A DNA stretch of 64,000 nucleotides from a virus (IMGVR_UViG_3300029288_000002:101308-165307); one strand, 5' to 3'; positions 5,474-60,881 are shown, counted from the first letter of the stretch. The notes: generated by a model from the letters alone, not told the origin. A program made the numbers and translations.

Positions 5474-5920
5474 ATGGATAGAGCAAATTTTTCACACGAA
5501 ATTATTTTGATTGGAGCAGTTGAACAAACAAATCCAATTATAGAATCTTTGTATAATATGCCTCATTTGGCATACGGGTTTAAAGCAGACATTTTTGAAA
5601 ATGTTGCTTACTGTTATATTGACATTGATATGAACGACGTTGCAATGTCTTCTTTTTTAGTAGAAACAAGTGTTGACTTTTACGATAGCAGTGGCTTTGA
5701 AGACGAACCGGAATTTACTACTGTGTCTTTTTATACCGAAACACAATTATACTCTTTTACTTGGTCATATCAATGGAGTGATTGGAGTAAAATGCTTAGG
5801 GATGAAACCTCGATAATGAATCTTTTATCTTGTAACCTTTTTGGAAATAAAATTAAATCCTTAAGAGAACAAGTATCATGTTCCTTATATACAATTGAGT
5901 TAGAAAATGAACAAGACTAA
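5474..5920 (+). CDS. partner protein of nuclease cassette A1 (acidic, unknown function)
   Basis: RBS AAGGAG; 3' end overlaps the nuclease start. Confidence 0.6.
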   Translation: MDRANFSHEIILIGAVEQTNPIIESLYNMPHLAYGFKADIFENVAYCYIDIDMNDVAMSSFLVETSVDFYDSSGFEDEPEFTTVSFYTETQLYSFTWSYQWSDWSKMLRDETSIMNLLSCNLFGNKIKSLREQVSCSLYTIELENEQD

Positions 5921-6443
5921 AAATTATAAATATTTAGATTATGCTACACCAAAAGAGCAACACATTTTACAATATTTATATGGATATTCTACTAAGTTTA
6001 TTGTTTGTAAAGATAAAAAGGGAAACACTGTCGAACAGACTAAGACATATGATGGAAATATTATTTGTAGTTATCCAGACATAGAAGTTTATACCAATGA
6101 AACACAAACGGTTATGATTGCGTTAATTGAAGTAAAAGGCTTTCTTCAATTTCCTAGAAGGGATTTACCATTTGATACTGATTTGAACATTTTGGCAATA
6201 AAAGAAAATCAATTAAAGTCGTATATCAAAGTCCAAAAAGAGGAACAAACAAATATAAATATTATCTTTGTGGTTGGTTATTCACCAGACGAATATGCTT
6301 TTTATTGGGAAAGTCTTGATAACATTTTAGCAATGGAATGTGTAAAGAAAACAGAATGGGCGTTTTTTCAAAAGAAGATAGTAAGATTTTACGATGCTTC
6401 TTTGTTTAGAAGAGACATTGAATATTGTGTAATACCTTTTTAG
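5907..6443 (+). CDS. PD-(D/E)XK nuclease, cassette A1
   Basis: YPDIE...LIEVKG...Q..SY..VQ..E...FYWESLDN; paralogous to 25147 and 42609. Confidence 0.7.
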   Translation: MNKTKNYKYLDYATPKEQHILQYLYGYSTKFIVCKDKKGNTVEQTKTYDGNIICSYPDIEVYTNETQTVMIALIEVKGFLQFPRRDLPFDTDLNILAIKENQLKSYIKVQKEEQTNINIIFVVGYSPDEYAFYWESLDNILAMECVKKTEWAFFQKKIVRFYDASLFRRDIEYCVIPF

Positions 6444-6946
6444 GTAATAAAATCCACATTTGATGAACAAAAGGAAGTATATGAGAGTAATAAAACATAC
6501 AATAAGCATAGAATATGAATGTGAGGAAACAAAATCCAAGCATAGTATAAAATTAATAAATAATAAATTTTCAATTTGGCAAAACCATGTGGAGGATTGG
6601 GGACACGAAACGTTTATTGAGTTTAAATGCCCGTTTTGCCAAAAATATCACCGACTGAAATGGCGTAACGAGTCCACATTTTAGAAATGAAAAAGGAGTG
6701 TTCATGTTAGAAATTGATATTGAAGATTATATTACAGAACAACTAAAAGATGTTGACTGTGAACTTGAAAGACACGATTTTATAGATTTTTATTTTCAAG
6801 ATAGAGATGGTATACAGTTACGGGTTGGTGAATATGAGTGTTATAAATATCTTTCGGAGTATGCAATTTCCAAAGGTGCTAAAATAGGGGATATTGTTTA
6901 TATTTACTGGAAGCCTATTCTAATATAAAAAAGGGCAATATAAAAA

Positions 6947-7932
6947 ATGGAAAATCGCTATCAAACAAGATGCTGTATGAATTGTAAATTTTTAGTTTTG
7001 TGTAACCACAATGAAGCGGATAATGTCTTTGAGTTTTTTGGTTGTAATGTAGATAAGACATATGATGAAGAAACAAGTGAAGCGGAATGGTTAGAAGAAA
7101 ACAAAACAGAATTAGATATGGTTTGTGACTTATGGGAGTTTAATTAGGCAGCAGAATATAGATAGCAATAGTAATATAATTGCAACACTTTTGGCTATTG
7201 CAATTTTAGTATTTGTAGCGTATAATGAATTTAGATTGATAAACTAAGAATAAGGAGTAAACAATGTGTGATTTTTGTAATGGTATGTACAACAAAGATG
7301 AAGCGAGAATGTACGCATTAAAACATCCAACATATTCACTAAGCATTATTGTCAATGGTAAGCAATATATAGTGGTTTCTTTGTCTTCTGATGTAAACGA
7401 TCTTATTGAAATAGATTATGACATTAATTATTGTCCTATGTGTGGTAGAAAACTTGTAGAGGAATAAACAATGAATAGACCCAACCTTAGAGAAATTAAT
7501 TGTGAATGTTGCGATAATTGTTACTTTTCAAAAATTGTTTCTATTGAAGAAATAGGAAAAGCCTATTTGGTTTGTAATTATGAAAATAATGAAAAGGACT
7601 GTTGCCTAAAGCATAAACAAGAATGGGCTGAAGAAAACGAAACCTTTAGTTATTTTATTTGTGATCTTTGGTCAATATAGTATTTGACCATTTTAGTTAC
7701 AAAAAAGGAAGTTAGAATGACCAGTTTATATAGTATTAGACCAAATTTTAGAGAGAACAACAACTGTAGCACGTGTAAATATCGAAATCTTAGACATGAT
7801 GGTTACGGAGGATTTGAATGGATTGGTTGCAACTTTGGTAATACTCGCCAAAACTATTTATCCCTCCTTCAAGAATGGTTGCGCACTTATGAGGTTTCAG
7901 AATTCAATGTTTGCGATTTATGGGAAGAATAG
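6947..7932 (+). CDS. cluster of small Cys-rich (zinc-binding) proteins; 6947..7147, 7471..7680 and 7718..7932 are paralogues, 7264..7467 is an unrelated CxxC protein
   Basis: Shared R...CxxC...CN...W...E...CDLW pattern. Confidence 0.6.
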
Positions 7933-8824
7933 AATGCTTATTTTAGTGACAAAAAGGAGAGTAACCATGTACACAACAGCGAAAGAAATGAGAGAACAGG
8001 CAAATAGTACAAAGACCGAATCTGAAAAAGTAAGTCGGCTTTTAATTCTCATTGATGAAGAATCTAAATTCGGAATGTATAATATCTGCCTCTATTACGG
8101 AAAGAAAAACTGCATATGGCTTTCATATTGTGATGTGGAATATATAACTGAAGTTTTAGGATATAAATACTGTCCTATAATTAATTCGACAAATGAAGAA
8201 ATTGGTTATACAATATCTTGGTGACAGATTTTAAAATTAGACAAACAGGTTATATGATTTCTTGGAAGACAAGAAAAACATCATTCTGATAAAACTCGGA
8301 TTTTAGTTACGAAAAATAAGGAGTTTGAGTATGTCTGTATATGAAAAGATTATTAATAGTGAATTTAAAATTAATGCGCTTGAGGCTAAAGAACTGTCGG
8401 AAGAATGTGAAAACTTATCAGAAAAAAATAGTATAAACACAAGCATTATACTAAGCGCAATAAAAGGGAGTCGTACTATTTACTACGGAGTTAACCAAAT
8501 AACACGAAGCGAAATTTTAGAATTGAAAAGGCAAGGATTTTGTATAATTCCACATTTGGGAAAGACTTGGTTGTTTGGTTTAATTGCAGATATTAATGGA
8601 TACAGCGTATATTGGTAATAAATTCTTGAATTTTAGCAACGAAATTGTAACTAAAATTGCTTGTAATTTGTAGTTATTTAGTATATACTAATAGTATACT
8701 ATGTAAAGGAGTAAAAATGACAAATTAGATTACTACAAACATTTGTCTTTTACCGCTTTGATTTGAAAAATGATTGAAACTATATCAAAAATATCTCAAT
8801 TATAAAACATATAAGGAGAGACAC

Positions 8825-9193
8825 ATGATCAGCCAAAAAAGTAAAGAGATGTGCGAAAAATTGGTAACAGCCATGTATAATTTGCAAGGGCTATCAATTA
8901 AAGCAATGCTGTGTTCTATGATTCCTGCAAACGTTGTGCAGTTGGAAGTATCTGATATTGTCGAGCATTTAATTAGAATTATAGGTACTCATTTTATGAT
9001 TGAAGAAAATCAAAGTTCAGAAATATATATTGAGCATTTGGAAGAATATGAATATTGGACTGGTAAAGCAAATAAACTGATCGAAAATTTAGAAACAATC
9101 ATTTTATATGATACAGAGAAAGACAGTGGAAAACTTTTTATTGATGCAAATAAGCCCTTGTTGGATAATTTTAAAACATATTGGGAAGGATAA
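8825..9193 (+). CDS. partner protein of nuclease cassette B1 (helical)
   Basis: RBS AAGGAG; residue pattern resembles 28704 and 43324. Confidence 0.55.
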   Translation: MISQKSKEMCEKLVTAMYNLQGLSIKAMLCSMIPANVVQLEVSDIVEHLIRIIGTHFMIEENQSSEIYIEHLEEYEYWTGKANKLIENLETIILYDTEKDSGKLFIDANKPLLDNFKTYWEG

Positions 9194-9200: not shown

Positions 9201-9869
9201 ATGAGGCTATTATCTCAATTGTTCAAAAGTCGCCCGAATCTTCCAGAGCCAAGCGAAGAATATTTAAAAATGCTAGAATTAGCAAAAGAATTTGAAAACA
9301 TAGTTTTGAATTGGATGGACTCTTATTGTTATTATATGAATATTGACAGATATACAGTTATAGATGATAAAACAGGTAGAGAAACATATCAAGTATATGC
9401 AGATGAAAATGACAATCCTCGCGCACACCCTGATTTGATTGCTGAAATTTATGTGAATGATAAAAATAGAGTAATAGTATATGTAGAAGTAAAAAGCAAA
9501 AAGTCTCCGTATTACAATTTAACAGGAAACATACCAGAAGATAAAATTAGTAAAACAGAAGAATGTTTTATTATAGAACAAAGTCAGTTCAATAGCTATT
9601 TACACTTGGCTAGAATGAAAAAATCAAAAGTTGATATTCTGTTTATTATTTCAAATTCCTGGAAATGGTATAGATTAGACGTTGAAAATTTAAACAAAAT
9701 AAAAACTTCAATAGTAAACCCTTTTGGTAATAATGGCGACAATCAACAAGGGTTATATTATGTATGGAGACTGAGAGACTTAAAAGAAATAAAAGATCGT
9801 CCCGAAAGACTAGAATTGTTAAGATGCGGGGATAAATTTGGGCAAATTCCTCCCTTTGAAGATAGATAG
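9201..9869 (+). CDS. PD-(D/E)XK nuclease, cassette B1
   Basis: FE..V..W...HPDL...VYVEVKSK...QFNSY...YYVW.L.DLK. Confidence 0.7.
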   Translation: MRLLSQLFKSRPNLPEPSEEYLKMLELAKEFENIVLNWMDSYCYYMNIDRYTVIDDKTGRETYQVYADENDNPRAHPDLIAEIYVNDKNRVIVYVEVKSKKSPYYNLTGNIPEDKISKTEECFIIEQSQFNSYLHLARMKKSKVDILFIISNSWKWYRLDVENLNKIKTSIVNPFGNNGDNQQGLYYVWRLRDLKEIKDRPERLELLRCGDKFGQIPPFEDR

Positions 9870-17151: not shown

Positions 17152-17220
17152 AGCGGGTTGCGAATGGTACGCCATTGGTCTCATACGCCAATCTAAACAG
17201 TCCGAGTCTGTTACCCACTA
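17152..17220 (+). tRNA. tRNA with CAT anticodon (Met, or Ile2 if lysidine-modified), degenerate
   Basis: Acceptor AGCGGGT/ACCCACT (1 mismatch), anticodon arm TTGGT-CTCATAC-GCCAA, T arm AACAG-TCCGAGT-CTGTT. Confidence 0.55.
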
Positions 17221-17283
17221 CTTATCAGCAATAGAATATAGATATGCGGCTTGTACGGTAATCTCTATTGCTGATATTATAAT

Positions 17284-17356
17284 GCCTTATTAGCTCATTC
17301 AGTAGAGCAACGCCCTTTTAAGGCGGAGGCGGTTGGGGCAGAGCCAATATAAGGCA
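17284..17356 (+). tRNA. tRNA-Lys(TTT), atypical T loop
   Basis: GCCTTAT/ATAAGGC acceptor, GCTC..GAGC D arm, CGCC-CTTTTAA-GGCG, T loop GGCAGAG. Confidence 0.8.
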
Positions 17357-17519
17357 CTGCCAGTTTAAATATATCTATTGTTTAGCCGACAGTCTGCTCT
17401 CGATAGTTCGCTACGCCTAAGCATATACAATAGATTAATCGAATTAAACTGGTAAACATTATAACTCGGCGGCATTGGTAGTCATTATTAGACTATAACA
17501 TTGCAGCATACCGCCAAAT

Positions 17520-17605
17520 GGAGAGTTGGCAGAGTTCGGTTGAATGCACTCGTTTGCTAAACGAGACCCCGAAAGGGGTCACAGGTTCAAATCCTGTACT
17601 CTCCG
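17520..17605 (+). tRNA. tRNA-Ser(GCT)
   Basis: GGAGAGT/ACTCTCC, CTCGT-TTGCTAA-ACGAG, long variable arm ACCCC-GAAA-GGGGT, GGTTCAAATCC. Confidence 0.92.
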
Positions 17606-17654
17606 CTAAAAAGCAATATGACAATATTGCATATTATCACAAGGAGAATTTCAA

Positions 17655-23906: not shown

Positions 23907-24635
23907 ATGCAATATATGGGTAGCAAAAATCGTTATGCTAAATACTTGTTGCCGATTCTGTAACAGAATCGGCAATTTGGTCAGTGGTATGTAGAGCCGT
24001 TTGTTGGTGGTGCAAATATGATAGATAAAGTTACTGGTAACAGAATTGGTGTGGATAATAACAAATACCTTATAGCATTACTCAAAGCAGTACAACAAGG
24101 GTGGATACCACCAAGCAACATTAGCAGAGAAGAATACAACAAAGTTAAAGATAACCCAGACTCTTATGAAGATTATTATGTTGGTTTTGTGGGATTTTGT
24201 TGCTCTTATGCTGTAAAGTGGTTTGGCGGTTATGCTAATAGCGTAACAAAAGCGGGTAGAATTAGAAATTATTGTTTTGAAAATAAAGAAAATTTGTTAG
24301 CACAAGCACCAAAGCTAAAAGATGTAGATTTTAGGTGTTGTTCATATGATCAATTAGACATTCCTAAGCAAAGCATTATCTATTGTGAATATGCAAATAG
24401 CACTAAATATGTATCTGCCTTTGATCACATTTCATTTTGGCGGTGGTGTAGAGAGAAGTGTGCAGAAGGTCATGCGCTTTATGTATCAGAATACTCCGCG
24501 CCAGAAGACTTCGTTTGCACATGGTCTAAACAGGTGATTGTAGGGTTAGATGTGACTACAACTACAAAGCGGATTGAGCGGCTGTTTGTACACGAAAGTC
24601 AGTTAAATTTGCATCTTGACAATCGCTTGTTTTAG
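23907..24635 (+). pseudogene. Dam/D12-class adenine methyltransferase with in-frame TAA at 23961 and loss of DPPY
   Basis: MQYMGSKNR...*...YVEPFVGGANM in frame with ORF 24018; IIYCEY where IYCDPPY is expected. Confidence 0.8.
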
Positions 24636-24673
24636 TGTATAATGAAAGTATAAGATTAGCTAAAGGAGAAGAT

Positions 24674-25156
24674 ATGGGTGAAATCAGAATCATTTTTGGT
24701 GAAAATGAAGTTCCGAGCAATGAAGAGTTAATTAAATGGGGAGATTTGGGAATTGCTTGGGTAATGGAATTTACCTTAAAGAAGAATGGGAATAAGGCAT
24801 TAATTGAATTTGAGGAATGTTCTCGCAGTTTCATTGACCAGTGTTTTGAGTTATTTATGCCATTTCACGATTCTAAAGTGTGGGCTTTTGCTTTGGATAA
24901 TGATGATGATTGCGCAATGCTACAAAAGTATTTGCGAAACGGCGAAGCGGAATATATGAGCATGGAGTCTAAGTCTGTTTGGACAAGACCATACAACAAA
25001 GAGTATGGTGATGCTTTTCTAAAATATATTGGATTTCCTGAAAACTTCTTTGATTTATTCAAAGAAGAAGCGTTTGAAAAGGACATGGTTTATTTAGTAG
25101 ATCATCGTAATGAAACGCTTATAGCAGAATATGAAAAGAGTCTTCTATGCCAATGA
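24674..25156 (+). CDS. partner protein of nuclease cassette A2
   Basis: Promoter TTGACA..TATAAT at 24616-24643; RBS; overlaps the nuclease start. Confidence 0.6.
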   Translation: MGEIRIIFGENEVPSNEELIKWGDLGIAWVMEFTLKKNGNKALIEFEECSRSFIDQCFELFMPFHDSKVWAFALDNDDDCAMLQKYLRNGEAEYMSMESKSVWTRPYNKEYGDAFLKYIGFPENFFDLFKEEAFEKDMVYLVDHRNETLIAEYEKSLLCQ

Positions 25157-25671
25157 GAGGTAGCGAATTTAGTATTTTTAATTTATTGTCTAAGTTTAAT
25201 AAAAAGACACCCGAATACAAATGGGAATACTTTGAGGTTTTTGGCGAAGATGGAAAAACAACAACATATCAATCAAAGTTATACCCTCCTCCCGCTTTTA
25301 GAGCAGCATATCCTGATTTTGAAAAGTATAAAATGCCAGAACACAGTTTGGTTTTGTTGGTAGAAGTAAAAGATCAAACAGATTACTATGAAAACTGTGA
25401 AGGTATGCTTGCAATGAAAAGATGCCAATTTAACCAATATTTTACAGTTCAAGACCAAGAAAAGGTAAAAGTTAGAGTTGTATTTGCTTTGAATATTACT
25501 GGCAGTCATTGGCATACAGAATACTATTGGGAAACATTAGATAATCTAAAACGCCTCCCTCATATTGACCAAATTTATGAAGGTTGGAGTTATGGTAAAA
25601 AGAAAACAGAAACTTATTGTTTTTGGAATGTTTGTGACCTTCGTAGTGATGTCGAAAACTTGGGAATTTGA
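25147..25671 (+). CDS. PD-(D/E)XK nuclease, cassette A2
   Basis: AYPDFEKY...LLVEVKD...QFNQY..VQ..E...YYWETLDNL...FWN..DLRSD. Confidence 0.7.
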   Translation: MPMRGSEFSIFNLLSKFNKKTPEYKWEYFEVFGEDGKTTTYQSKLYPPPAFRAAYPDFEKYKMPEHSLVLLVEVKDQTDYYENCEGMLAMKRCQFNQYFTVQDQEKVKVRVVFALNITGSHWHTEYYWETLDNLKRLPHIDQIYEGWSYGKKKTETYCFWNVCDLRSDVENLGI

Positions 25672-28703: not shown

Positions 28704-29075
28704 ATGACTAAAATGCAAGGAAATGAGAATGTTCAAGCCTTATTGGAACGCATATATGCTTTGCTGTTGCTTGGTATACGCGGAAGCAATATGTCGCTGG
28801 TTAGTGTTGAAAATACAACGTCTGCTGCTTTTATTATTGCAGAAATATATGTGTTATTAAATAGACAAGAAATTTACTTTTCAGAATGCGAGTTTATGAC
28901 TGTAGAAGTCGAAGAAATTCTTAAGCGAGCTGATAGATTGATTGATATATGGTCTGTCGGTTATTGCGAAACTGCTAATAGACCGGTTGAAAAAGAATTG
29001 AAAAATATGCCGTTTTTTGTAAGTGATTTTAAAGATGTTTTGTTTACAAATAGTATAAATAAAGAGACTAAATAA
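28704..29075 (+). CDS. partner protein of nuclease cassette B2
   Basis: RBS AAGGAG; TAATG stop/start coupling with the nuclease; resembles 43324. Confidence 0.55.
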   Translation: MTKMQGNENVQALLERIYALLLLGIRGSNMSLVSVENTTSAAFIIAEIYVLLNRQEIYFSECEFMTVEVEEILKRADRLIDIWSVGYCETANRPVEKELKNMPFFVSDFKDVLFTNSINKETK

Positions 29076-29656
29076 TGTTTACCAAAAAGTCAAAAACACA
29101 ATTTGATAAAAATTTTGAAATAGGTGAGTATTACGAAACCCTCGTTGAGCGTTGGTTAAATTCAATGGGCGTTTATAATGTTGAAAAAGTTGTATGCAAA
29201 AAGAATGGAAAGGTGGTTCATCAATATTGTATTAATGACAAGGGGGACGAAATTCCATTTCCTGATTTTAGAGTATTCTTGATAGGAGAAAAAGGATTCT
29301 TTTCTAAACCTAAGTTTTTACTTGAAGTTAAAAGTTTTGAAAAATATTATAATAACACTGATTCAAGTATAAAAGAACTGGAACTTTTTAAAAACTATAT
29401 GATGGTTGATGCTTACCATTTTGATAGTTATAAATGGATAGCTAAAGAATACAAACAAAGTGTAGAGTTTATATTTGTAATTTATTCTGGCTTTACTTAT
29501 TGGTATACAGAAAGCATTGATTATTTAGATGCTCATAAGATTCTGGTTCAAGGATTGTTTTATGATTCTTCTAATTCACATTATGCTTGGGCGGTTGATA
29601 TACTCAAAAGAATAAATGGTCATCCTTTAAAGAGGTATGGCTGGGATAGTTTGTAA
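29075..29656 (+). CDS. PD-(D/E)XK nuclease, cassette B2
   Basis: GEYYE..VE.WL...FPDF...LLEVKS...F..Y...WYTESID.L..HK. Confidence 0.7.
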   Translation: MFTKKSKTQFDKNFEIGEYYETLVERWLNSMGVYNVEKVVCKKNGKVVHQYCINDKGDEIPFPDFRVFLIGEKGFFSKPKFLLEVKSFEKYYNNTDSSIKELELFKNYMMVDAYHFDSYKWIAKEYKQSVEFIFVIYSGFTYWYTESIDYLDAHKILVQGLFYDSSNSHYAWAVDILKRINGHPLKRYGWDSL

Positions 29657-30774: not shown

Positions 30775-30778
30775 CTAA

Positions 30779-36822: not shown

Positions 36823-36880
36823 AATTGGGGCTTGACAAAGGATATAGAATAGACTATAATAACTTAAAGGAGATTGGATT

Positions 36881-37315
36881 ATGAGTGATACATATAACGA
36901 AATAAAAATATATGGGGCTAAACCAACAGAAAGTATTATAAGCCAAATCAATTCAATATTTGGAGCATCGTGTATATTTTTTGAAATTGATTCTGTTATT
37001 TCTCACAAACAAGACACGTTGCGCAATGTAACAATCATCGAGTATGAAAAACTACAGCACCTCTGCAAAGACATTGGGGCAATATTATTAACCTCTCAGA
37101 TTGATGAATCGTTGCAACACAGTAAAAAAACACTGTGCTTTCCTGATGGTAGAGTAATGGTGTTAGATGTTATATCTGATAAATTAGAGGATCACCAAAA
37201 AGACACAGCCGTTTTTGATATGTTTTTTGTCAATAATGGTGTTACAAAAGACGCAAACAAAAAAACAATGTTGCCCAATAAGGGGAAGAAAGAACATGAC
37301 AGAAATCCTTTCTGA
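36881..37315 (+). CDS. partner protein of nuclease cassette C1
   Basis: Promoter 36832-36860; I.IYG.KPT...S.INS.F and FPDG resemble 59894 (ITLFGKTPT...SKINSVF, YPDG). Confidence 0.6.
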   Translation: MSDTYNEIKIYGAKPTESIISQINSIFGASCIFFEIDSVISHKQDTLRNVTIIEYEKLQHLCKDIGAILLTSQIDESLQHSKKTLCFPDGRVMVLDVISDKLEDHQKDTAVFDMFFVNNGVTKDANKKTMLPNKGKKEHDRNPF

Positions 37316-37874
37316 AGAAGAATTTGGTAAACAAGGGCAAGACTTAGTTATTAATTACCTTGAAAAAGATAGAGGATGTAAATTCCTTGCTGGTGAAAGG
37401 GACGGGACAGTATACAACATCTTTTATATTGAAGAAACTGAAAAGTGTTTCTTTATACCAGAATGTAGAGATGATGATGAAGAATGGCACGGTAATCAAT
37501 TGTTGTTTGCAAATGAAGAAAAAGGTATAATCATGCCTGATTTTCTTATGAGTAGACCAAACGACACCGGGGATTATTGGGTAGAGGCTAAGAGGCACCA
37601 CTATTATTCTGATAAATTATATATTGTTGAAAAAAGTTTTTTAGATTATCAGAAATTCTATGAAGATCATACTGATAGAGATATGTTTGTTATGTTAATT
37701 AATCCTTACAACGAAACTCATATTAATATATATTATTGTCCTATTTCTAAGTTAATTGAATCTCCTTGTATAAGAAGTCTATATAAGAAAAAATATTCTC
37801 TATTGTGGTCTATAAAGAAAACAATGAAAAAGCTAAACGAATCACCACTGTTAATAACAGACTATCTTTTTTAG
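37296..37874 (+). CDS. PD-(D/E)XK nuclease, cassette C1
   Basis: FGKQGQD..INYLEK, MPDFLM, YWVEAKRHH; close paralogue of 60282. Confidence 0.7.
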   Translation: MTEILSEEEFGKQGQDLVINYLEKDRGCKFLAGERDGTVYNIFYIEETEKCFFIPECRDDDEEWHGNQLLFANEEKGIIMPDFLMSRPNDTGDYWVEAKRHHYYSDKLYIVEKSFLDYQKFYEDHTDRDMFVMLINPYNETHINIYYCPISKLIESPCIRSLYKKKYSLLWSIKKTMKKLNESPLLITDYLF

Positions 37875-42163: not shown

Positions 42164-42616
42164 ATGTACGGAGTTGACTTGGGTTATATTAAAGTTTTGT
42201 CAAATGAAAATAACAAAAAAGAAGTTTACAAATCTTGGGAAAAGAAGATCGCATCTACAGGATTTAATTTATATAGAGATTTTTGTAATAACGATGTATT
42301 TATTCGATTTGATGGGGTTGGTACTTCTTTTATTACTGACTGCAAAGAATTATTTTCAGACAAAACTTTTTGTGTTTACGCTTATGGTGAATGTGATACC
42401 CAAAGTTACTATTATATTAAGGAAGATAATAAATTAGTAACTATAATTGCTGATAGTACAGGATTTAGTCTGGGAGATACCAAAATTGAAAAACAATGGT
42501 TAAGAATAATGGGATTTTCTGATTCTTTTATTGAAAAAGTATTGGCTTTTGACGAAGATCATATGCCTCAAACAATGTTACAAATCTTTTGGAAAGGCGA
42601 AAATCCAAATGAATAA
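42164..42616 (+). CDS. partner protein of nuclease cassette A3
   Basis: RBS AAGGAG; SFI..C.ELF and L..MGF.DSF shared with 24674; overlaps the nuclease start. Confidence 0.6.
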   Translation: MYGVDLGYIKVLSNENNKKEVYKSWEKKIASTGFNLYRDFCNNDVFIRFDGVGTSFITDCKELFSDKTFCVYAYGECDTQSYYYIKEDNKLVTIIADSTGFSLGDTKIEKQWLRIMGFSDSFIEKVLAFDEDHMPQTMLQIFWKGENPNE

Positions 42617-43127
42617 GAGCGAGGACACCGTATATCAACTATTAACTCGTTTTGACAACGGTAAAGATTTTAGATTTTTTGAGATTAAAGAAAACAATAT
42701 AACAAAAGCACAAACTAAAAGGTATTCTGATTTAGATGATCCGGTTGCATATCCTGATTTTGAAAGATATATAGAAAACGAATTAGTATTGCTAATAGAA
42801 GTAAAAGGGTATGATGGATTTTTTGATCAAAGAGAAAATACTGTTGCAATGTTGGAGCGGCATTTTAATAATTATTTAGAAGTACAAAAACATGAAGCAT
42901 TAGAAATTCAGGTTGTATTTGTTATTTGGAGTTTAACCCAATATAACGTTTGCTGTTATTTTTGGGAATCTCTTAATAATCTAAGAAACACTGTTCTATA
43001 TAAAGAAAAATATGAAATACAATATAAAAAAGGCAATAAAGGAAAGGAACAGTGTTTGTTTTGGAATACTGATAATTTGAGAACAGACATTTGGGAGATC
43101 GGACAAATCCCCGGATACGATTATTAA
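42609..43127 (+). CDS. PD-(D/E)XK nuclease, cassette A3
   Basis: AYPDFERY...LLIEVKG...HFNNY..VQ..E...YFWESLNNL...FWN.DNLRTD. Confidence 0.7.
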   Translation: MNKSEDTVYQLLTRFDNGKDFRFFEIKENNITKAQTKRYSDLDDPVAYPDFERYIENELVLLIEVKGYDGFFDQRENTVAMLERHFNNYLEVQKHEALEIQVVFVIWSLTQYNVCCYFWESLNNLRNTVLYKEKYEIQYKKGNKGKEQCLFWNTDNLRTDIWEIGQIPGYDY

Positions 43128-43323
43128 AACGTATTGTTTGAATCTCTTTTGGTTATTTACCCTTGTTTTCAAAGAAGAAATGGATTTGATAGAATCCCAA
43201 TTGAAAAAAGAGAAGGTAAAATCAAAATTTTATTACAAGCTGTGTGAGAATAGAAAACGCTTGACAAATAATCAGAATGGGGTATACTGAGTTAAAGGAT
43301 AGAATATTTACAAAGGAGAAGAT

Positions 43324-43746
43324 ATGGCAACAAAAAAAGAAGGAAATAAATACTCAGAAGCCGTTATGCGTAGTATTTATCGTATTAACGCCGTTGTCCC
43401 GTTTGTGAGATTGGATGTAGATCAGTTTATTGGTGATAAATCTATTATTATGTCAAACGCAGGGTGTTTATTAATGGAATTGTATGCTCTTTTGGGGAAT
43501 GACCAGATACTAAAAGATAAACCGTCAGAATACTTTGTCTGTAATTTGCACAATGTAATGGAACGTGTAAAATTTCTATTGGATACTGTTAAGTCAATTT
43601 ATTTAGATGTTGCTCAGGATAGTTTTTATGAGAATATCAAGATAGAAGAAAATAAAAAAATGCAAGAGTTTTGTCATTTGTTTTATTCATATGAAAACTT
43701 AGAAACACCTATTCAAAATATAGGAGACTTTTTAAATGACTTATGA
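43324..43746 (+). CDS. partner protein of nuclease cassette B3
   Basis: Promoter 43261-43288; overlaps the nuclease start. Confidence 0.55.
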   Translation: MATKKEGNKYSEAVMRSIYRINAVVPFVRLDVDQFIGDKSIIMSNAGCLLMELYALLGNDQILKDKPSEYFVCNLHNVMERVKFLLDTVKSIYLDVAQDSFYENIKIEENKKMQEFCHLFYSYENLETPIQNIGDFLNDL

Positions 43747-44326
43747 TGAAAACTCAGAAGAAGCCAAAACGGGAGCTTATTGGGAGGTTCGTATTGAAGA
43801 ATTTTTAAAAGAAGTATGTACCAAAGTCAATAAAATTGTGTGTTACAATGATAGTGGTAAACGGGTCGCACAAACATTTTTATATGGAGGAGGATACCAC
43901 TCCAAACCAGACTTTGAAGTTAGTTTAAGCAATAACGGAAATATTGATTTATATGTCGAAGCAAAAAGTAGCAGTTTTGCCTGGATAGACAGAAAAATGT
44001 TTTCTGTTTCAGAAGAAATTGTTTTATGTGCTAAGATGTCTCGCCGTCAGTTTAACGATTATGTTTTGTTTCAGAAAGTAATGAATACTAAAGTTAAGGT
44101 TATATTTGTTATAGAAGATATGCGCTCTTGGTATACAGAAACAATTGATTGGCTAAACAAACATAAACAACAAGCAATATCAAGTAAAGGTTATGAATAT
44201 TTTATTTGGAAACTCGATGATTTAAAGAAAATTAAAACAAATATAACATCCCGTCCTGGATCGCAAGAAGAGTGCTATGATAATATACCTGACATGAGTG
44301 ACGCGGACGGTTTTAGTTTTGGATAA
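43736..44326 (+). CDS. PD-(D/E)XK nuclease, cassette B3
   Basis: GAYWE..IE.FL...KPDFEV...YVEAKS...QFNDY...WYTETID.LNKHK. Confidence 0.7.
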   Translation: MTYDENSEEAKTGAYWEVRIEEFLKEVCTKVNKIVCYNDSGKRVAQTFLYGGGYHSKPDFEVSLSNNGNIDLYVEAKSSSFAWIDRKMFSVSEEIVLCAKMSRRQFNDYVLFQKVMNTKVKVIFVIEDMRSWYTETIDWLNKHKQQAISSKGYEYFIWKLDDLKKIKTNITSRPGSQEECYDNIPDMSDADGFSFG

Positions 44327-44656
44327 TAGTCTTGACAAACACACGTCTATTGGTATAATGAATAAATGGAGATTTTTATGATTGGCGAAGATATGCTTAA
44401 TAGCTCTTTAGAGAAAGCAACATTAAATGATACTCCTCATATATGGATAATTTGGGTAAAATCGTTTGACGGTATAAACACAATTGTTGCAATTTGTACA
44501 ACAGAAAGTATAGCTAATACTTTTATAACCTATTTGCAAAAGGTAAATAAAACAGAGCATAATAGAACGGGAAACAAAAAGTTTGCAAAGATATGGAAGG
44601 AAGAAACAATAACAAATCACTTGTTTCTAAATATTGCGCTTTTATAGAGAGGGATA

Positions 44657-47005: not shown

Positions 47006-47389
47006 ATTGATACTTGACAAAGAAAACAAAATAGTATATAATACAATGTGTGAAAGGAGTCATATGAACAGGCAAGAGTTATACGATATATTTGTTCCGT
47101 TAGGTTGGCATACTGCTGACGAATTTGAAATTCTATTGCCAGATATTACTAAAAAGGATTTAGAAGAGGAAAGGCTTAAAAATTGGAATAAGAAAACAAA
47201 CTTTATTATTATTGCATATTGGCGTGGGTATTACACTTTTTTTGATGATTGTGTACCATATACTACTCAATATCCAGATATAATGTATTATTCTTGGGAT
47301 ATTGGAGGATTGTATATTGATAACGATTGTGATGAAGATAGTACCAATAGTGATTTTGTAATTTTATGGAAGGAAAACGAGAAATAGTT

Positions 47390-48507: not shown

Positions 48508-49425
48508 ATGTTTGAGAGTATATCCGATACGATTTCTACTGCTTTGGGAGATTGTTTGGATATACTCCCTTCTATTCCAGAAGGGAGTATAGATGCAATT
48601 CTCACAGACCTCCCGTTTCAGATCACCCGATCTGAGTGGGACTTGATAATCCCATTTAACAAGTACATAATTCTTGATAACGAAGCGTGTTATTATCAAG
48701 AAGCATTGCAACAATTATTAGAACGAGGATGCACTTATCAAGAGTTTAAACTAATTTGGGAATCCGAAAAGAAAGAAGGAATGTGGCAACAAGTAAAGAG
48801 AGTATTAAAGCCAAGCGGAGTTTTTGTGACAAGTGCAAGTCAACCGTTTACAAGCAAACTCGTTCTAAGTAATCTTGAAATGTTTAAATATTGTTGGGTG
48901 TGGGAGAAGAGTCACGCGACAGGTTTTCTCGATTGTAAAAAGAAACCAATGAAGCAGCATGAAGACATCGTAGTATTCTACGATAAGCAGTGTACTTATA
49001 ATCCTCAAATGTACAAGAAAGACCCTGCTAAAATCAGAAACGGTAAAAAGAACCCTGAAGTTGTAAGAACGACAGACTCTTACAATAGCTTCAAAGATTT
49101 TGTAGATCGCTCTGTGCCGGAAGATGTGGGTTATCCTTTATCTATTCAGTATTTTGCTACTCCATATAAAGGACAGGGCAATAAGGCTGTGGGAGGGCTA
49201 CATCCAACACAAAAACCAGTAGAACTATATGAATATCTTATTCGTACATATACTAACCCCGGAGACACAGTGTTAGACTTTTGCATGGGTAGTGGCACTA
49301 CAGGAGAAGCGTGCAAGAACTTAAATCGTAGATTTATTGGAATTGAAAAAGAACAGAAGTATTACGATATAGCTAAAGAAAGGCTGTTGAAGTGTTTACA
49401 GCAGCAATCATTGTTCAATGAGTAA
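48508..49425 (+). CDS. DNA methyltransferase, N6/N4 beta class
   Basis: GDCL, DAILTDLPF, HPTQKP, VLDFCMGSGTTG. Confidence 0.9.
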   Translation: MFESISDTISTALGDCLDILPSIPEGSIDAILTDLPFQITRSEWDLIIPFNKYIILDNEACYYQEALQQLLERGCTYQEFKLIWESEKKEGMWQQVKRVLKPSGVFVTSASQPFTSKLVLSNLEMFKYCWVWEKSHATGFLDCKKKPMKQHEDIVVFYDKQCTYNPQMYKKDPAKIRNGKKNPEVVRTTDSYNSFKDFVDRSVPEDVGYPLSIQYFATPYKGQGNKAVGGLHPTQKPVELYEYLIRTYTNPGDTVLDFCMGSGTTGEACKNLNRRFIGIEKEQKYYDIAKERLLKCLQQQSLFNE

Positions 49426-52570: not shown

Positions 52571-53595
52571 AATTATCTCTATTTATGGACAAAAACATGA
52601 AAACATTTAAAGACACAAAACTACAAAACTTAAAAAAGTTAAAATCAATCAAAGATAAACTTAATCCTGATATATACAACCTCTTAACTACTTTTTATAG
52701 TAATTATGACCAATTTGTAGTTCAACAAATTAAAAGAAGTTTAGAAAAAAAAGAATGGTCACAATTAATAAACAAAGGCGAAAAATCACCGCCTCTAAGT
52801 GAGATTTTATTAAATACGCAAATTGCCGACAAATATGCAAATGTTAAAACAATAGATGATGCTATTGAATTGCAGAAACTATATCCTAATATTTATCTAT
52901 CTGCTGATATAAGTGTAGAAGATTATTTCTGTGGTAGTGCGTATGGACAAAAAATAAACAAAAGCATTATTACTTTAGGTTCATATGATTGCTTGCGAAT
53001 TATTCAATGTAACACAGATGCAAATTATAATATTATAGCATCAGATAATCATGTGTTTACAGAAGACGAAGCGAATGATGTTTTAGAAGAGTATAATGAG
53101 TATGGACATTACTCAGAAGATATTGTAGAATATACAGGAAATAGAAAACAAGAATTAGAAAAAACGTTTGACGAAACATTTTATTCTATTATGCCCGATT
53201 TTCCTTCTGATATAGATGTCTTGAATGACGTTGTTTTGTTTATACAATCTGACGGTACTGTTACAATTATAATGTTTACATTGACTTGGAATATGCTTAT
53301 TTTTACTGGCACTATAAACAAAGAAATTTGCACAGACGCTTTTACTAAAGAGTATAACCCGTTTATTCACAAAAGACCATATAAACTATATTTAGACAGT
53401 AGAAATTTACCAGTAGTATTTTTATATCCTCGATTGGATGATTTATTCGTGGGAACAGAAGTAGAAGTAGAAAATATTGAAAGATTAATTTAAACTGATC
53501 CTTGACAAACGATTGGTAGTATGATATACTAAACTAATACAAAAGAGACAGTACATAAATGGCAACGAAGAAAATGTTAATGGAAAAAAGATTAA

Positions 53596-54225
53596 ATGAG
53601 TAACAATAGTAAAACATTGAACGATATTATAAACGGAAGAACAAAATATTCTATCACTCAATATAATTCTCCTAAAATTATAGGATCAATTTCTAAAATA
53701 TTTGCAGAAAACAGATTTACCTCTTTTGAAGAATATTGTAAATATTATACAAGTAATATTTTAAGTTATGAAAAATTAGAAAAGCTGTCGCTAAAGATAT
53801 ACAATGATGTGGGATTCAACTTTAGTAATATTACATCTTTAGATATTTATAATTATTTGTTTGATTTAATTTTTGTTAAGTCTTGGGAAGGATTTGTCAA
53901 TCGTATAGATAGGGCAATCACATTCCTTACATTACACGAGTATGCCAATATAGAACATGCGATAGAGGATTATGATTACCATTATGCGATTGACTTATTT
54001 GCTACGAAAAACAACAAAGAATTTATTATTCAAGTAAAGCCAAAATCATTTCTCGATCAGTATTACAAATATCATTATTATCAAAACTTAACAAAAAATC
54101 TCAAATATCTAAATGAGAAACAATGCGATTGTTATGTGATTTATTTGTTTGATACTGGTAAAACATTTATGCCAAAAGTCTATAGCAAAGAAGGACTAAT
54201 AAAGGAGATAAATGCAAACAAATAA
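53596..54225 (+). CDS. MjaI-like type II restriction endonuclease
   Basis: EEY..YY, KSWEG, D..YAIDL, IQVKP.SF; own promoter 53502-53530; overlaps the MTase gene. Confidence 0.6.
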   Translation: MSNNSKTLNDIINGRTKYSITQYNSPKIIGSISKIFAENRFTSFEEYCKYYTSNILSYEKLEKLSLKIYNDVGFNFSNITSLDIYNYLFDLIFVKSWEGFVNRIDRAITFLTLHEYANIEHAIEDYDYHYAIDLFATKNNKEFIIQVKPKSFLDQYYKYHYYQNLTKNLKYLNEKQCDCYVIYLFDTGKTFMPKVYSKEGLIKEINANK

Positions 54226-54940
54226 CCTATATTTAGGCGATTGCTTAAATGTAATGAAAGATTTTTCAGATGGTTTGTTTGATATGATTTTGTGTGATCC
54301 GCCATTCGGAACTACTTGTTTGGAATGGGATTCTGCAATTGACTTTTCTAAAATGTGGGTTGAATTAAAACGTATATCTAAATCAAATGCTGCGATCCTG
54401 TTGTTTGCAGCTAATCCCTTTGACAAACCTTTGGCTTGCTCAAATATTGAAATGTACAAGTATGATTGGATTTGGCTAAAGGAGCAGGGCAGCGGGCAAC
54501 TAAATTCAAAAAAACAACCTTTGCGTAAACACGAAAATATTTTAGTGTTTTACAAAAAACAGCCAATATACAATCCGCAATTTACACAGGGAAAACCATA
54601 TTCAATCAAGCGCAATATAAAAACTGAGGGATTGTTGCTATATAACGGAATAGCAAAAGAAACTGAAACTATTAGTAACGGTGACAGATACCCGACAAGC
54701 GAATTGCGCTTTAATAGGGAGTTGTCACATCGCTATCATCCAACGCAAAAGCCAGTATTATTATTAGAATATTTAATTAATACATACACCAACGATGGTA
54801 TGAAAGTTTTAGATTTTACTATGGGAAGTGGAAGTACTGGCGTTGCGTGTAAATACACAAACAGAGATTTTTATGGCATTGAAAAAGAAGAACGCTACTT
54901 CAATATAGCCAAAAAAAGAATTGAAGAAGGGCTATTATAA
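54212..54940 (+). CDS. DNA methyltransferase, N6/N4 beta class
   Basis: GDCL, CDPPF, HPTQKP, VLDFTMGSGSTG. Confidence 0.9.
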   Translation: MQTNNLYLGDCLNVMKDFSDGLFDMILCDPPFGTTCLEWDSAIDFSKMWVELKRISKSNAAILLFAANPFDKPLACSNIEMYKYDWIWLKEQGSGQLNSKKQPLRKHENILVFYKKQPIYNPQFTQGKPYSIKRNIKTEGLLLYNGIAKETETISNGDRYPTSELRFNRELSHRYHPTQKPVLLLEYLINTYTNDGMKVLDFTMGSGSTGVACKYTNRDFYGIEKEERYFNIAKKRIEEGLL

Positions 54941-59370: not shown

Positions 59371-59434
59371 ACTGCTACTTGACAAAAGAATGAATATGGA
59401 GTATACTGATAATATACTAAGATAAGGAGAAGAC

Positions 59435-59836
59435 ATGAGCGTACAAATTGATATGCACTTTACAATATTCGGCAATTGGAAAACCCATGAAATTTTAGTT
59501 GATGTTTTTAATAATTTGTTTGAAAACAAATCTTCTTTTAAAATTGTAGAAAACAAAATAGTTTCGGTTGGCTTAAATGATCTTACTGACAATGAAATTG
59601 CTAATATTAAACGAATTTGTTCAATCTTTGATCTTTGTTTTTTGATGTATTGGATGGAAGAGTCACAAGGATATGGATATATTGTAGAATATGCCCCCTC
59701 TGATCTTTATTGTAAAATGGAATTTTCTGATTTCAAAAATTGGAAAAACGAAAAAGAAATTGTTGATTTTCTTAATTTGAACGATTTCTATGATTTACCA
59801 AAAGAAGAAAACACGGAATATGATTCGCCGTTTTGA
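59435..59836 (+). CDS. extra partner-type protein of cassette C2 (paralogue of 59894)
   Basis: MSVQID..T.FG, L.FL..W....GYG....Y.P.D...KME shared with 59894; promoter 59379-59407. Confidence 0.65.
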   Translation: MSVQIDMHFTIFGNWKTHEILVDVFNNLFENKSSFKIVENKIVSVGLNDLTDNEIANIKRICSIFDLCFLMYWMEESQGYGYIVEYAPSDLYCKMEFSDFKNWKNEKEIVDFLNLNDFYDLPKEENTEYDSPF

Positions 59837-59893
59837 TCTCCAAATAAACCTTTTATTTGGAAAATAAACACAAGAGTCAAAGGAGAAGCAAAT

Positions 59894-60292
59894 ATGAGTG
59901 TACAGATTGACAGCGGGATAACCTTATTTGGTAAAACACCAACAGCAGAAGATTTATCTAAAATAAATAGTGTATTCAAAAAGTTTAATTCTAAAGATGG
60001 TGTGTTTGAGATTGAGGATAATAAAATAAAACAAAAGTCAGGCTGTTTCTATAATTTACCTGATGAAATGGTTACTAAAACTTGGGAGTTGTCTAAAGAA
60101 TTAGGACTATATTTTCTTCTCACTTGGTTTAACAATGACTTGGGATACGGTCGTGTTTTATATTATCCTGATGGCGACTATACAAAAATGGAAAGTCGCG
60201 TTATTATTCCTATGATACCTTTAGATTCTTTTTTGCTTCTTTGTAATTTACAAAAAGAATATAATAAAAAGGAAGTAACTGATGTCATCTAA
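59894..60292 (+). CDS. partner protein of nuclease cassette C2
   Basis: RBS; overlaps the nuclease start. Confidence 0.65.
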   Translation: MSVQIDSGITLFGKTPTAEDLSKINSVFKKFNSKDGVFEIEDNKIKQKSGCFYNLPDEMVTKTWELSKELGLYFLLTWFNNDLGYGRVLYYPDGDYTKMESRVIIPMIPLDSFLLLCNLQKEYNKKEVTDVI

Positions 60293-60881
60293 CATTGATT
60301 TCTTAGCAGAACTGAATTTTGGTAAACAAGGGCAAGACTTTCTTATAAATTATTTAGAAAAGAATTATAATTTAATATTTGTCGCTGGTGAAAGATTCGG
60401 GGATGTAATAAACATAGAATTTATCGAACAACTTGAACACGGAGAATTTATACCTGCTAAAATGACATACCCCGGTCACGGGCCTCAATTGAAACTATTT
60501 GGGGAATATGGTGAAGAAACATTGACTTTGCCTGATTTTTTGATGAGAGACAATTCGGACGAAAGTCTATATTGGGCTGAAGTAAAAAGACATCATAATG
60601 ATAGCAATAGCATTTGGATAGATGAAAAAAGCTATGATGATTATGTGTCTTTTTATCAAAACTATACCCATAAAAAGTTATTAGTATATTGTATAAACCC
60701 AATAAATAAAGAACAAACACTTGTTAATATTTATTATTGTCTTATTTCCAATTTAATTGTTACTAATTGTTCCACCATATTATATGACGATTATGGAAAA
60801 AAGAAATACATATGGAAAATTTTTAAAACAATGAAAAAGCTAAACAATCATCCGATTTTATTTTCTGATTATTTGGAGTAA
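60282..60881 (+). CDS. PD-(D/E)XK nuclease, cassette C2
   Basis: FGKQGQD..INYLEK, LPDFLM, YWAEVKRHH. Confidence 0.7.
   Translation: MSSNIDFLAELNFGKQGQDFLINYLEKNYNLIFVAGERFGDVINIEFIEQLEHGEFIPAKMTYPGHGPQLKLFGEYGEETLTLPDFLMRDNSDESLYWAEVKRHHNDSNSIWIDEKSYDDYVSFYQNYTHKKLLVYCINPINKEQTLVNIYYCLISNLIVTNCSTILYDDYGKKKYIWKIFKTMKKLNNHPILFSDYLE

What the first reader, a model, noticed from the sequence alone, without database searches (positions are those of the whole stretch)
5474..60881. Eight dispersed partner + PD-(D/E)XK nuclease cassettes in three co-varying subfamilies
Seen: eight nucleases with a PD-x(n)-E(V/A)K core, each directly preceded by a 120-160-aa partner that overlaps or abuts its start. 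Type A: 5474/5907, 24674/25147, 42164/42609. Type B: 8825/9201, 28704/29075, 43324/43736. Type C: 36881/37296, 59894/60282, plus a spare partner paralogue at 59435. Partner class tracks nuclease class: B partners look helical, C partners share FG/YG..PT...INS.F, and A2/A3 partners share SFI..C.ELF (A1 is more divergent). Six cassettes have their own sigma70 promoter. Several sit beside core genes (between primase and exonuclease, upstream of the polymerase, downstream of nrdJ). None carries a methyltransferase within the cassette. Inference: a mobile nuclease-inhibitor (toxin-immunity) or nuclease-specificity-subunit system, used for phage-phage competition, host DNA degradation or two-component homing. 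The extra partner at 59435 looks like an orphan immunity gene.
Basis: partly seen in the sequence, partly recalled or inferred. Interest (0 to 1): 0.85.

Follow-up and report, generated by a model that had tools for sequence, protein, structure and literature searches.

The report
Eleven nuclease-plus-partner cassettes in one phage
A 165-kb uncultivated phage carries eleven scattered two-gene units, each pairing a small DNA-cutting enzyme of an undescribed family with a fast-evolving acidic companion protein; they look like selfish or competitive nuclease modules, but the companion's role is unproven.

Summary
All eight ORFs are real homologues carrying an E…PD…E-x-K site. An AlphaFold model (pLDDT 94.5) has the restriction-endonuclease fold and is closest to the archaeal resolvase Hjc (Z 10.1). 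Types A, B and C belong to one superfamily (profile-profile E 5e-8). Three more cassettes ("type D") lie outside the window, giving 11 in the genome (6.9% of it), plus three orphan partner genes.

The nuclease family matches nothing in Pfam, PHROGs, PADLOC, NCBIfam or GenBank phages. About 90 metagenomic clusters contain it.

Every nuclease (11 here, 2 in a distant relative) has an abutting or overlapping upstream ORF of 95-160 aa. These partners are acidic, have strong ribosome-binding sites, and fall into at least eight mutually unrelated classes. One metagenomic protein fuses an A-type partner to an A-type nuclease.

Distribution is patchy: relatives carry 2, 0 and 0 copies. The cassettes are AT-richer than the genome and sit beside replication genes.

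Best reading: mobile, homing-endonuclease-like nuclease modules whose partner binds the nuclease, probably as an inhibitor or regulator. "Three co-varying subfamilies" is only partly right.

The parts
5424..5452 (+). Promoter of cassette A1 (TTGACA-N17-TACAAT), just after a terminator-like hairpin
5474..5920 (+). A1 partner, 148 aa, pI 4.07; unrelated to the other partners
   Evidence: strong SD
5907..6443 (+). A1 nuclease, 178 aa, PD...EVK; overlaps the partner by 14 nt
8825..9193 (+). B1 partner, 122 aa, pI 4.7; no detectable relative
9201..9869 (+). B1 nuclease, 222 aa, PD...EVK
24616..24643 (+). Promoter of cassette A2 (TTGACA-N16-TATAAT)
24674..25156 (+). A2 partner, 160 aa, pI 4.5; class pA; 37% identical to the N-terminal half of the fused metagenomic protein P0014
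   Evidence: AF2 model unreliable
25147..25671 (+). A2 nuclease, 174 aa; modelled at pLDDT 94.5, Hjc-like PD-(D/E)XK fold
28704..29075 (+). B2 partner, 123 aa; marginal similarity to the B3 partner
29075..29656 (+). B2 nuclease, 193 aa, PD...EVK; 1-nt overlap with the partner stop
36832..36860 (+). Promoter of cassette C1 (TTGACA-N17-TATAAT), about 10 nt after the primase stop codon
36881..37315 (+). C1 partner, 144 aa; class pC
37296..37874 (+). C1 nuclease, 192 aa, PD...EAK; lies between primase (35824-36822) and a PDDEXK_1 exonuclease (37894-38646)
42164..42616 (+). A3 partner, 150 aa; class pA
42609..43127 (+). A3 nuclease, 172 aa, PD...EVK
43261..43288 (+). Promoter of cassette B3 (TTGACA-N16-TATACT)
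43324..43746 (+). B3 partner, 140 aa; has an orphan paralogue at genome 21759-22265(-)
43736..44326 (+). B3 nuclease, 196 aa, PD...EAK; about 330 nt upstream of the DNA polymerase gene (a 93-aa ORF at 44366-44647 lies between)
59379..59407 (+). Promoter upstream of Cx; no separate promoter was found before the C2 partner, so Cx, C2 partner and C2 nuclease are probably one unit; follows a terminator-like hairpin after nrdJ
59435..59836 (+). Cx, an orphan partner paralogue (133 aa, pI 4.35; 34% identical to the C2 partner)
59894..60292 (+). C2 partner, 132 aa; class pC
60282..60881 (+). C2 nuclease, 199 aa, PD...EVK; 48% identical to C1; four paralogues found genome-wide

Best explanation
Each cassette is a compact accessory unit. 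It usually has its own consensus host-type promoter, then a small acidic partner protein with a strong ribosome-binding site, then a translationally coupled ~175-220-aa endonuclease. The nuclease belongs to a previously undescribed, Hjc-like branch of the PD-(D/E)XK superfamily and has a complete E...PD...ExK metal-binding site.

I read the cassettes as mobile, selfish nuclease modules of the free-standing homing-endonuclease kind. They have accumulated in this phage to 11 diverged copies, lodged between replication and nucleotide-metabolism genes. I read the partner as a cognate nuclease-binding protein, most probably an inhibitor or regulator (immunity-like) made first and in excess. It would restrain the enzyme in the carrier, so that the nuclease acts on DNA lacking the cassette, such as co-infecting relatives or possibly the host.

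Shown here: homology, fold, catalytic motif, two-gene architecture in two phages, one fusion, patchy distribution, AT-rich composition, promoter and SD pattern, orphan partners.

Inferred: nuclease activity, physical partner-nuclease binding, inhibition, mobility by cleavage and repair.
For: Fold and active site:
- AF2 pLDDT 94.5. Structural matches: Hjc 2wcw Z 10.1, D212 Z 9.6, RecU Z 8.8, and the homing endonuclease I-Ssp6803I Z 7.3.
- P, D, K and a downstream Y are invariant, and the two Glu nearly so, over 68 family members.
- All 11 genome copies keep PD and ExK.

One superfamily: hhalign of C/D against A/B gives E 5e-8.

Obligate pairing:
- 13 of 13 nucleases (G000 11, G001 2) have an abutting upstream 95-160-aa ORF, against a background of about 20-23%.
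- P0014 fuses a pA-type partner (37% identity, E 2e-27) to an A-type nuclease.
- Partner and nuclease identities rank the same way within classes A and D.

Inhibitor-like traits:
- Partners have pI 4.1-5.9 and net charge -3 to -18.
- The partner gene comes first.
- Partner SD duplex averages -9.7 against -6.2 kcal/mol for nucleases, p 3e-4.
- There are three orphan partners and no orphan nuclease.

Mobile or accessory traits:
- G000 paralogues are interspersed with foreign sequences in the tree and are often closer to them than to each other.
- Copy number is 11, 2, 0 and 0 in four related phages.
- The D1 slot between conserved genes differs between G000 and G001.
- 10 of 11 cassettes are below genome GC, mean 31.1% against 34.2%.
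- The cassettes sit beside primase, exonuclease, polymerase and RNR. HEGs typically sit in such places (PMC10448857 abstract).
- I-Ssp6803I shows that a minimal Hjc-like PD-(D/E)XK protein can be a homing endonuclease (PMC3384342).
Against: - No cleavage, binding or mobility was tested.
- The partner fold is unknown: AF2 gave pLDDT 54.5, and fold hits are generic ferredoxin-like.
- An inhibitor fused to its nuclease (P0014) is unusual. The fusion fits a two-domain enzyme better, and it could also be an assembly or gene-calling artefact, because its DNA could not be fetched.
- Known free-standing HEGs need no partner and no immunity.
- Partners within one nuclease clade are non-homologous (A1, A2/A3, G1a), which is odd for tightly co-evolving immunity proteins.
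- The G000/G001 comparison is between very distant genomes (25-59% aa), so the D1 presence/absence is a variable slot, not a clean insertion. The middle genes there are unrelated.
- Overlapping genes and consensus promoters are common throughout this genome.
- The nucleases themselves are not basic (pI 4.9-7.0).
Confidence: 0.4

Rival explanations
1. Two-subunit (or split) homing or site-specific endonuclease. The partner is an obligate targeting or activating subunit of the nuclease, not an inhibitor. Swapping partner classes would change the target.
For: The natural fusion P0014 joins partner and nuclease in one polypeptide. Partners are replaced by unrelated ones within a single nuclease clade, as expected for exchangeable targeting modules. 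No nuclease is ever found without a partner. Orphan partners could serve as alternative subunits.
Against: Partners are acidic (pI 4.1-5.9), which is a poor fit for DNA-binding specificity subunits. No HTH or other DNA-binding family was detected. I-Ssp6803I-type enzymes recognise long sites without any extra subunit (PMC3384342).
Confidence: 0.2
2. The nuclease is a stand-alone free-standing homing endonuclease. The upstream genes are unrelated hitch-hiking cargo, for example small acidic anti-defence proteins spread by co-conversion with the nuclease gene.
For: Partners are hypervariable, small, acidic and expressed from host-type promoters, like many anti-defence proteins. HEGs are known to mobilise flanking genes, including anti-defence loci (PMC13096335 and PMC10448857 abstracts). 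Gene overlaps are common in this genome.
Against: All 13 nucleases have a partner and none stands alone. Partner and nuclease co-diverge within classes A, C and D. One fused form exists. Nuclease translation appears to depend on weak SDs and coupling to the partner ORF.
Confidence: 0.15
3. A restriction-like arsenal for degrading host or competitor DNA. The phage genome would be protected by its many DNA methyltransferases and/or by the partners, with no homing involved.
For: The fold also resembles type II restriction enzymes (NhoI, SwaI, EcoRV; Z 6-7). The genome encodes several DNA methyltransferase-like proteins. The D2 and A2 cassettes and the orphan B4 partner lie within about 1.3 kb of one. 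The cassettes have host-type consensus promoters, which would suit expression by the host polymerase early in infection (timing is inferred).
Against: No methyltransferase lies inside any cassette. Only about 3 of 12 loci are near one, roughly what chance gives (my estimate from coordinates). Eleven diverged copies, patchy distribution and AT-rich composition fit selfish elements better than a core host-shutoff function.
Confidence: 0.1
4. Ordinary recombination or packaging resolvases (Hjc/RecU-like) that have simply been duplicated.
For: The best structural matches are Holliday-junction resolvases.
Against: The 11 copies are diverged to 20-50% identity and are absent from two related complete phages. 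There is no Hjc or RecU Pfam match. Obligate variable partners are unknown for resolvases.
Confidence: 0.03

Closest known systems
I-Ssp6803I, the PD-(D/E)XK homing endonuclease (PDB 2ost)
   Same: Small single-domain Hjc-like PD-(D/E)XK protein (Z 7.3, 113 residues aligned). PMC3384342 states that its own closest structural relative is Hjc. It is encoded by a selfish element.
   Different: I-Ssp6803I is intron-encoded in a cyanobacterial tRNA gene, is a single gene and has no partner. There is no detectable sequence similarity to it. The cassettes here are intergenic two-gene units present in 11 copies.
Free-standing homing endonuclease genes of T4-type and ICP1 phages (seg, mob, T5orf172; PMC2988022, PMC10448857)
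   Same: Many diverged copies per genome. They are lodged between or next to essential replication and nucleotide-metabolism genes, are patchy among relatives and are AT-rich accessory DNA.
   Different: Those enzymes are GIY-YIG or HNH proteins with their own DNA-binding domains and no dedicated partner gene. Mobility of the cassettes here is not demonstrated.
Archaeal Hjc, bacterial RecU and fusellovirus D212 nucleases
   Same: These are the best fold matches (Z 10.1, 8.8 and 9.6) and share the E...D...ExK catalytic arrangement.
   Different: There is no sequence-family membership. Hjc and RecU are single-copy housekeeping resolvases without partner genes.
Nuclease toxin-immunity and type II toxin-antitoxin pairs (for example colicin DNase-Im; antitoxin-first TA operons)
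   Same: A small acidic protein is encoded next to a nuclease. The antidote-first order with translational coupling and stronger partner translation signals is similar. Orphan antidote genes occur without orphan toxins.
   Different: No partner matches any known immunity or antitoxin family. The context is a lytic-type phage replication region. One natural fusion of the two proteins exists. Neutralisation is untested.

Membership tests
PD-(D/E)XK (restriction-endonuclease-like) superfamily | alpha-beta-beta-beta-alpha-beta core fold | tested here: met
   AF2 model of the A2 nuclease, pLDDT 94.5. Hjc Z 10.1 with rmsd 3.0 over 120 residues; many REases and resolvases at Z 5-10. C/D types are linked to this model only by profile homology; they were not modelled.
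PD-(D/E)XK (restriction-endonuclease-like) superfamily | Catalytic (E)...PD...(D/E)xK motif | tested here: met
   P, D and K are invariant and both Glu nearly invariant in 68 sequences. PD and ExK are present in all 11 genome copies.
PD-(D/E)XK (restriction-endonuclease-like) superfamily | Metal-dependent nuclease activity | not testable with these tools
   Requires biochemistry.
Hjc / RecU Holliday-junction resolvases | Sequence membership in the Hjc or RecU families | tested here: not met
   No Pfam, NCBIfam or PDB sequence match for any copy or for 68 family members.
Hjc / RecU Holliday-junction resolvases | Conserved single-copy core recombination gene | tested here: not met
   11 diverged copies here; 2, 0 and 0 in three related phages.
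Homing endonuclease genes (free-standing) | Intergenic position next to conserved or essential genes | tested here: met
   C1 lies between primase and exonuclease, A3/B3 before the DNA polymerase, C2 after RNR.
Homing endonuclease genes (free-standing) | Sporadic presence/absence among related genomes | tested here: inconclusive
   Copy numbers are 11/2/0/0, and the D1 slot differs between G000 and G001. The genomes are very distant and the slot's other gene also differs.
Homing endonuclease genes (free-standing) | Cleaves the cassette-less allele and spreads by gene conversion | not testable with these tools
   Needs cleavage mapping and co-infection crosses.
Toxin-antitoxin / nuclease-immunity pairs | Adjacent co-transcribed, translationally coupled genes with the antidote favoured in expression | tested here: met
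   Overlaps of 1-23 nt in 10 of 11 cassettes. Partner SD is stronger than nuclease SD, p 3e-4. The promoter lies upstream of the partner. Expression levels are inferred from sequence only.
Toxin-antitoxin / nuclease-immunity pairs | Cognate-specific binding and neutralisation | not testable with these tools
The partner model alone is unreliable.
Toxin-antitoxin / nuclease-immunity pairs | Partner belongs to a known immunity or antitoxin family | tested here: not met
   No Pfam, NCBIfam or PADLOC match. A lone AbiEii hit (E 2e-4) appeared in 1 of 7 family members only.
Type II restriction-modification systems | Cognate methyltransferase adjacent to the nuclease | tested here: not met
   No methyltransferase within any cassette. 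Only D2, A2 and the orphan B4 partner lie within about 1.3 kb of one.

The most novel reading that the evidence does not exclude
These cassettes are a new class of selfish genetic element: a homing-type or competition nuclease that travels with its own hypervariable, class-specific inhibitor (a 'nuclease-immunity homing cassette'). A phage could then stockpile many mutually orthogonal DNA-cutting weapons against co-infecting relatives while staying immune itself. Orphan partner genes would serve as immunity against nucleases it no longer carries.
Probability: 0.25. Interest if true: 0.85.

Novelty: new variant of a known kind. Interest (0 to 1): 0.62.

Why it matters
If the pairing is functional, this is an undescribed nuclease family with a built-in, rapidly diversifying partner, expanded to 7% of a phage genome. 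It could add a seventh structural lineage, and a two-component design, to the homing and competition nucleases that shape phage genome mosaicism. It would also supply a set of small orthogonal nuclease/partner pairs for study. Either way, about 90 metagenomic protein clusters that now have no annotation would gain a fold and a catalytic site, and the family would gain a genomic context.

Tried and rejected
- Pfam, PHROGs, PADLOC and NCBIfam scans of nucleases and partners gave nothing above noise. The AbiEii hit to the D1 partner was dropped because only 1 of 7 family members shows it.
- PDB sequence search: nothing.
- tblastn of three family members against 50,697 GenBank phage records: no match. 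DNA searches also found nothing.
- Word-index protein searches found only this genome's own proteins for the C/D nucleases and the A2 partner. The D-partner alignment found three outside relatives.
Metagenome and genome-collection scans for P0019, P0014 and P0010 found nothing. Several alignments were too diverse to scan with. Viral scans for the D partner, the D nuclease, the primase and B1 found nothing.
- Folding the fused protein P0014 with a mixed alignment was abandoned because MAFFT placed the partner rows on the nuclease domain.
- The partner model (three-sequence alignment) came out at pLDDT 54.5, and its fold hits are not meaningful.
- The ESM Atlas gave no usable lead for two partners.
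- Partners as degenerate nuclease paralogues: no profile similarity.
- A link between cassettes and methyltransferases: proximity is no more than chance would give.
- Earlier scan notes by sequence and by words: nothing.

Full report
**Setting.** The window is bases 101308-165307 of a 165,307-bp virus record with direct terminal repeats. GC is 34%. Ribosome-binding sites are of the AAGGAG type and promoters are TTGACA/TATAAT. This suits a phage of a low-GC Gram-positive host, which is my inference. Its DNA polymerase is only about 34% identical to the nearest GenBank phage proteins.

**Observation.** All eight nuclease ORFs and their upstream ORFs translate as described, and each nuclease carries PD...E(V/A)K.
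- A and B nucleases are mutually related (blastp 1e-5 to 1e-27). C1 and C2 are 48% identical.
- The C type is homologous to A/B at profile level: hhalign probability 94.8%, E 5e-8 over 128 columns. The N-terminal helix Glu, PD, ExK and the following helix are all aligned (a weaker first test is).
- The genome holds three more cassettes outside the window ("type D"), at 46343-47367(-), 52890-53874(-) and 97100-98114(+). Their nucleases group with C and their partners form a fourth class.
- In total there are 11 cassettes covering 11.4 kb, or 6.9% of the genome.

**The nuclease.**
- A full HMMER scan of 1.84 billion representatives with the A/B profile found 98 proteins (69 at E ≤ 1e-10). Almost all are 150-200 aa, and the ten I looked up are unnamed or called only "hypothetical protein".
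- Across 68 members, P, D, K and a downstream Tyr are invariant. Two Glu, a Gln and a Phe are nearly so.
- With that alignment, AlphaFold2 gave pLDDT 94.5 and pTM 0.89.
- The model has the restriction-endonuclease fold. Matches are A. fulgidus Hjc Z 10.1 (rmsd 3.0, 120 residues), S. solfataricus Hjc 9.7, fusellovirus D212 9.6, RecU 8.8, NhoI 7.3 and the homing endonuclease I-Ssp6803I 7.3.
- Among predicted viral structures only anonymous small proteins match, at TM about 0.5 and 10-14% identity.
- No Pfam, PHROG, PADLOC, NCBIfam or PDB sequence match exists. tblastn of three members against 50,697 GenBank phage records found nothing.
- It is therefore a new family inside a well-known superfamily.

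**The partners.**
- Every one of the 11 nucleases has a same-strand upstream ORF of 122-160 aa. It overlaps the nuclease start by 1-23 nt, or is 7 nt away in B1.
- A distantly related 129.7-kb phage (G001, IMGVR_UViG_3300044712_000833) has two family members. Both also have an overlapping upstream ORF of about 95-117 aa.
- In a crude gene set of this genome, only about 20-23% of genes have such a neighbour.
- By profile comparison the partners fall into classes with no detectable cross-similarity: pA (A2, A3), pC (C1, C2, Cx), pD (D1-D3), and singletons A1, B1, G1a and G1b. B2 and B3 are marginally alike. They show no similarity to the nucleases.
- Within classes, partner and nuclease identities rank alike. 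For A2/P0014 the values are 44% and 36%, against 35% and 25% for A2/A3. D1/D2 is highest for both proteins.
- One metagenomic protein, P0014 (323 aa), has an N-terminal half 37% identical to the A2 partner (E 2e-27) and a C-terminal A-type nuclease. It is the sister of A2 in the tree.
- The D partner class has relatives in other metagenomes (P0108 is 65% identical; also P0109 and P0111).
- All partners are acidic (pI 4.07-5.93, net charge -3 to -18). The nucleases have pI 4.9-7.0.
- All partners have an AAGGAG Shine-Dalgarno. The nucleases have weaker ones: mean duplex energy -9.7 against -6.2 kcal/mol, Mann-Whitney p 3e-4.
- There are three orphan partner genes: Cx at window 59435; a fourth pD member at genome 93899-94360; and a B3-type paralogue at genome 21759-22265, between two methyltransferase genes. 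There is no orphan nuclease.
- The one partner I could model (A2, three-sequence alignment) gave pLDDT 54.5. Its mixed beta/alpha secondary structure and ferredoxin-like fold hits are not reliable. The Atlas gave nothing usable.

**Expression signals.** Near-consensus TTGACA-N16-18-TATAAT promoters lie 19-35 nt upstream of the partner ATG for A1, A2, C1, B3 and Cx. No separate promoter precedes the C2 partner, so C2 is probably served from the Cx promoter. The same holds for D1 and D2 outside the window and for the orphan B-type partner. D3 has a weaker site, and B1, B2 and A3 have none by this criterion. In several cases the promoter starts at, or within 10 nt of, the stop codon of the preceding core gene. 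Such promoters are common in this genome (190 sites), so this shows autonomy but not peculiarity.

**Mobility evidence.**
- The G000 paralogues are not recent duplicates. A2 is closer to P0014, A3 to P0019, and B2 to P0032 than to any sibling. In a quick maximum-likelihood tree of 93 members, A1-A3 sit in a supported clade (SH-aLRT 96) with 15 foreign sequences. B1-B3 sit in another clade with 9 foreign sequences (the careful search did not finish).
- G001 shares a syntenic structural module with G000 at 35-59% identity but has only two copies and no C/D type. Two complete 197-200-kb relatives (terminase 37% identical) have none.
- At one syntenic slot, G000 has the 894-aa and 266-aa genes, then the D1 cassette and a 228-aa gene, then a 335-aa gene. 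G001 has the homologous 902-aa and 245-aa genes, a single unrelated 121-aa gene, and the homologous 325-aa gene. This is a variable slot, not a clean insertion.
- Ten of 11 cassettes are below the genome GC (mean 31.1% against 34.2%).
- The neighbours are classic sites for homing-endonuclease genes. DnaB and primase precede C1 and a PDDEXK_1 exonuclease follows it. A3 and B3 precede the DNA polymerase and clamp. Cx and C2 follow class II RNR and precede a dUTPase (compare the PMC10448857 abstract).
- Earlier, unchecked notes of this scan report introns and endonuclease cassettes elsewhere in this genome.

**Interpretation.**
- The nuclease fold, intact site, copy number, divergence, patchiness and location all fit free-standing selfish nuclease genes. 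I-Ssp6803I shows that a minimal Hjc-like protein can be a homing enzyme (PMC3384342).
- What is new is the constant but interchangeable partner.
- Favouring an inhibitor or regulator: acidity, gene order, stronger translation signals, and orphans on the partner side only.
- Favouring two parts of one enzyme: the fusion, and the replacement of partners by unrelated proteins within one nuclease clade.
- Against mere hitch-hiking cargo: all 13 nucleases are paired, the two proteins co-diverge within classes, and a fusion exists.
- A restriction-like host-degradation role is possible but not supported by methyltransferase adjacency.
- I therefore commit, at moderate confidence, to mobile nuclease modules with a cognate nuclease-binding partner that is most likely inhibitory. 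The binding and the cleavage remain inferred.

**Limits.** No complex prediction was available.

Noticed in passing
window 6947-7932: Three small Cys-rich paralogous ORFs (66, 69 and 82 aa) between cassettes A1 and B1. Each has CxxC-type pairs and ends in ...(V/I)CDLWE/S. Function unknown.
   Followed up: no
genome 20313-21158(-), 22338-23129(-), 54240-55724(-); window 23264-23845, 26897-27658, 48508-49425, 54212-54940: An unusually large set of DNA-methyltransferase-like genes. 26897-27658 has a Pfam MTS/N6_Mtase hit. Three outside the window show DPPY/SPPY and GSGTT motifs in translation. All seven of the others share a ~60-aa segment matching a single site of phage G001.
   Followed up: partly
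genome 93899-94360(+) and 21759-22265(-) (outside the window): Two further orphan partner genes: a fourth pD member (E 6.5e-32) and a B3-type paralogue (E 6e-10). Neither has a nuclease gene downstream.
   Followed up: partly
window 44657-47005: The 782-aa DNA polymerase has no Pfam hit at E <= 0.001, although tblastn finds DNA polymerases of crAss-like and other phages at about 30-34% identity. It is a divergent polymerase lineage.
   Followed up: no
window 61235-62323: A 362-aa protein with a C-terminal dUTPase/dCTP-deaminase-like domain (residues ~233-355) and an unassigned N-terminal ~230 aa.
   Followed up: no
window 25775-26743: An SPFH/Band-7 domain protein directly downstream of cassette A2, with its own promoter.
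   Followed up: no
window 17152-17606 and 30697-31030: Four tRNA genes: Met-CAT, Ser-GCT, Ile-TAT and Leu-TAA.
   Followed up: no
L004 5043-6066 (G001 113043-114066): In the relative G001, the B-like cassette lies directly downstream of two overlapping ORFs of 182 and 171 aa, which I did not identify. An A-type cassette in G001 lies about 1.4-2.8 kb upstream of two methyltransferase genes. One is 59% identical to the methyltransferase downstream of cassette A2 in this window, which is loose synteny despite unrelated partners.
   Followed up: partly
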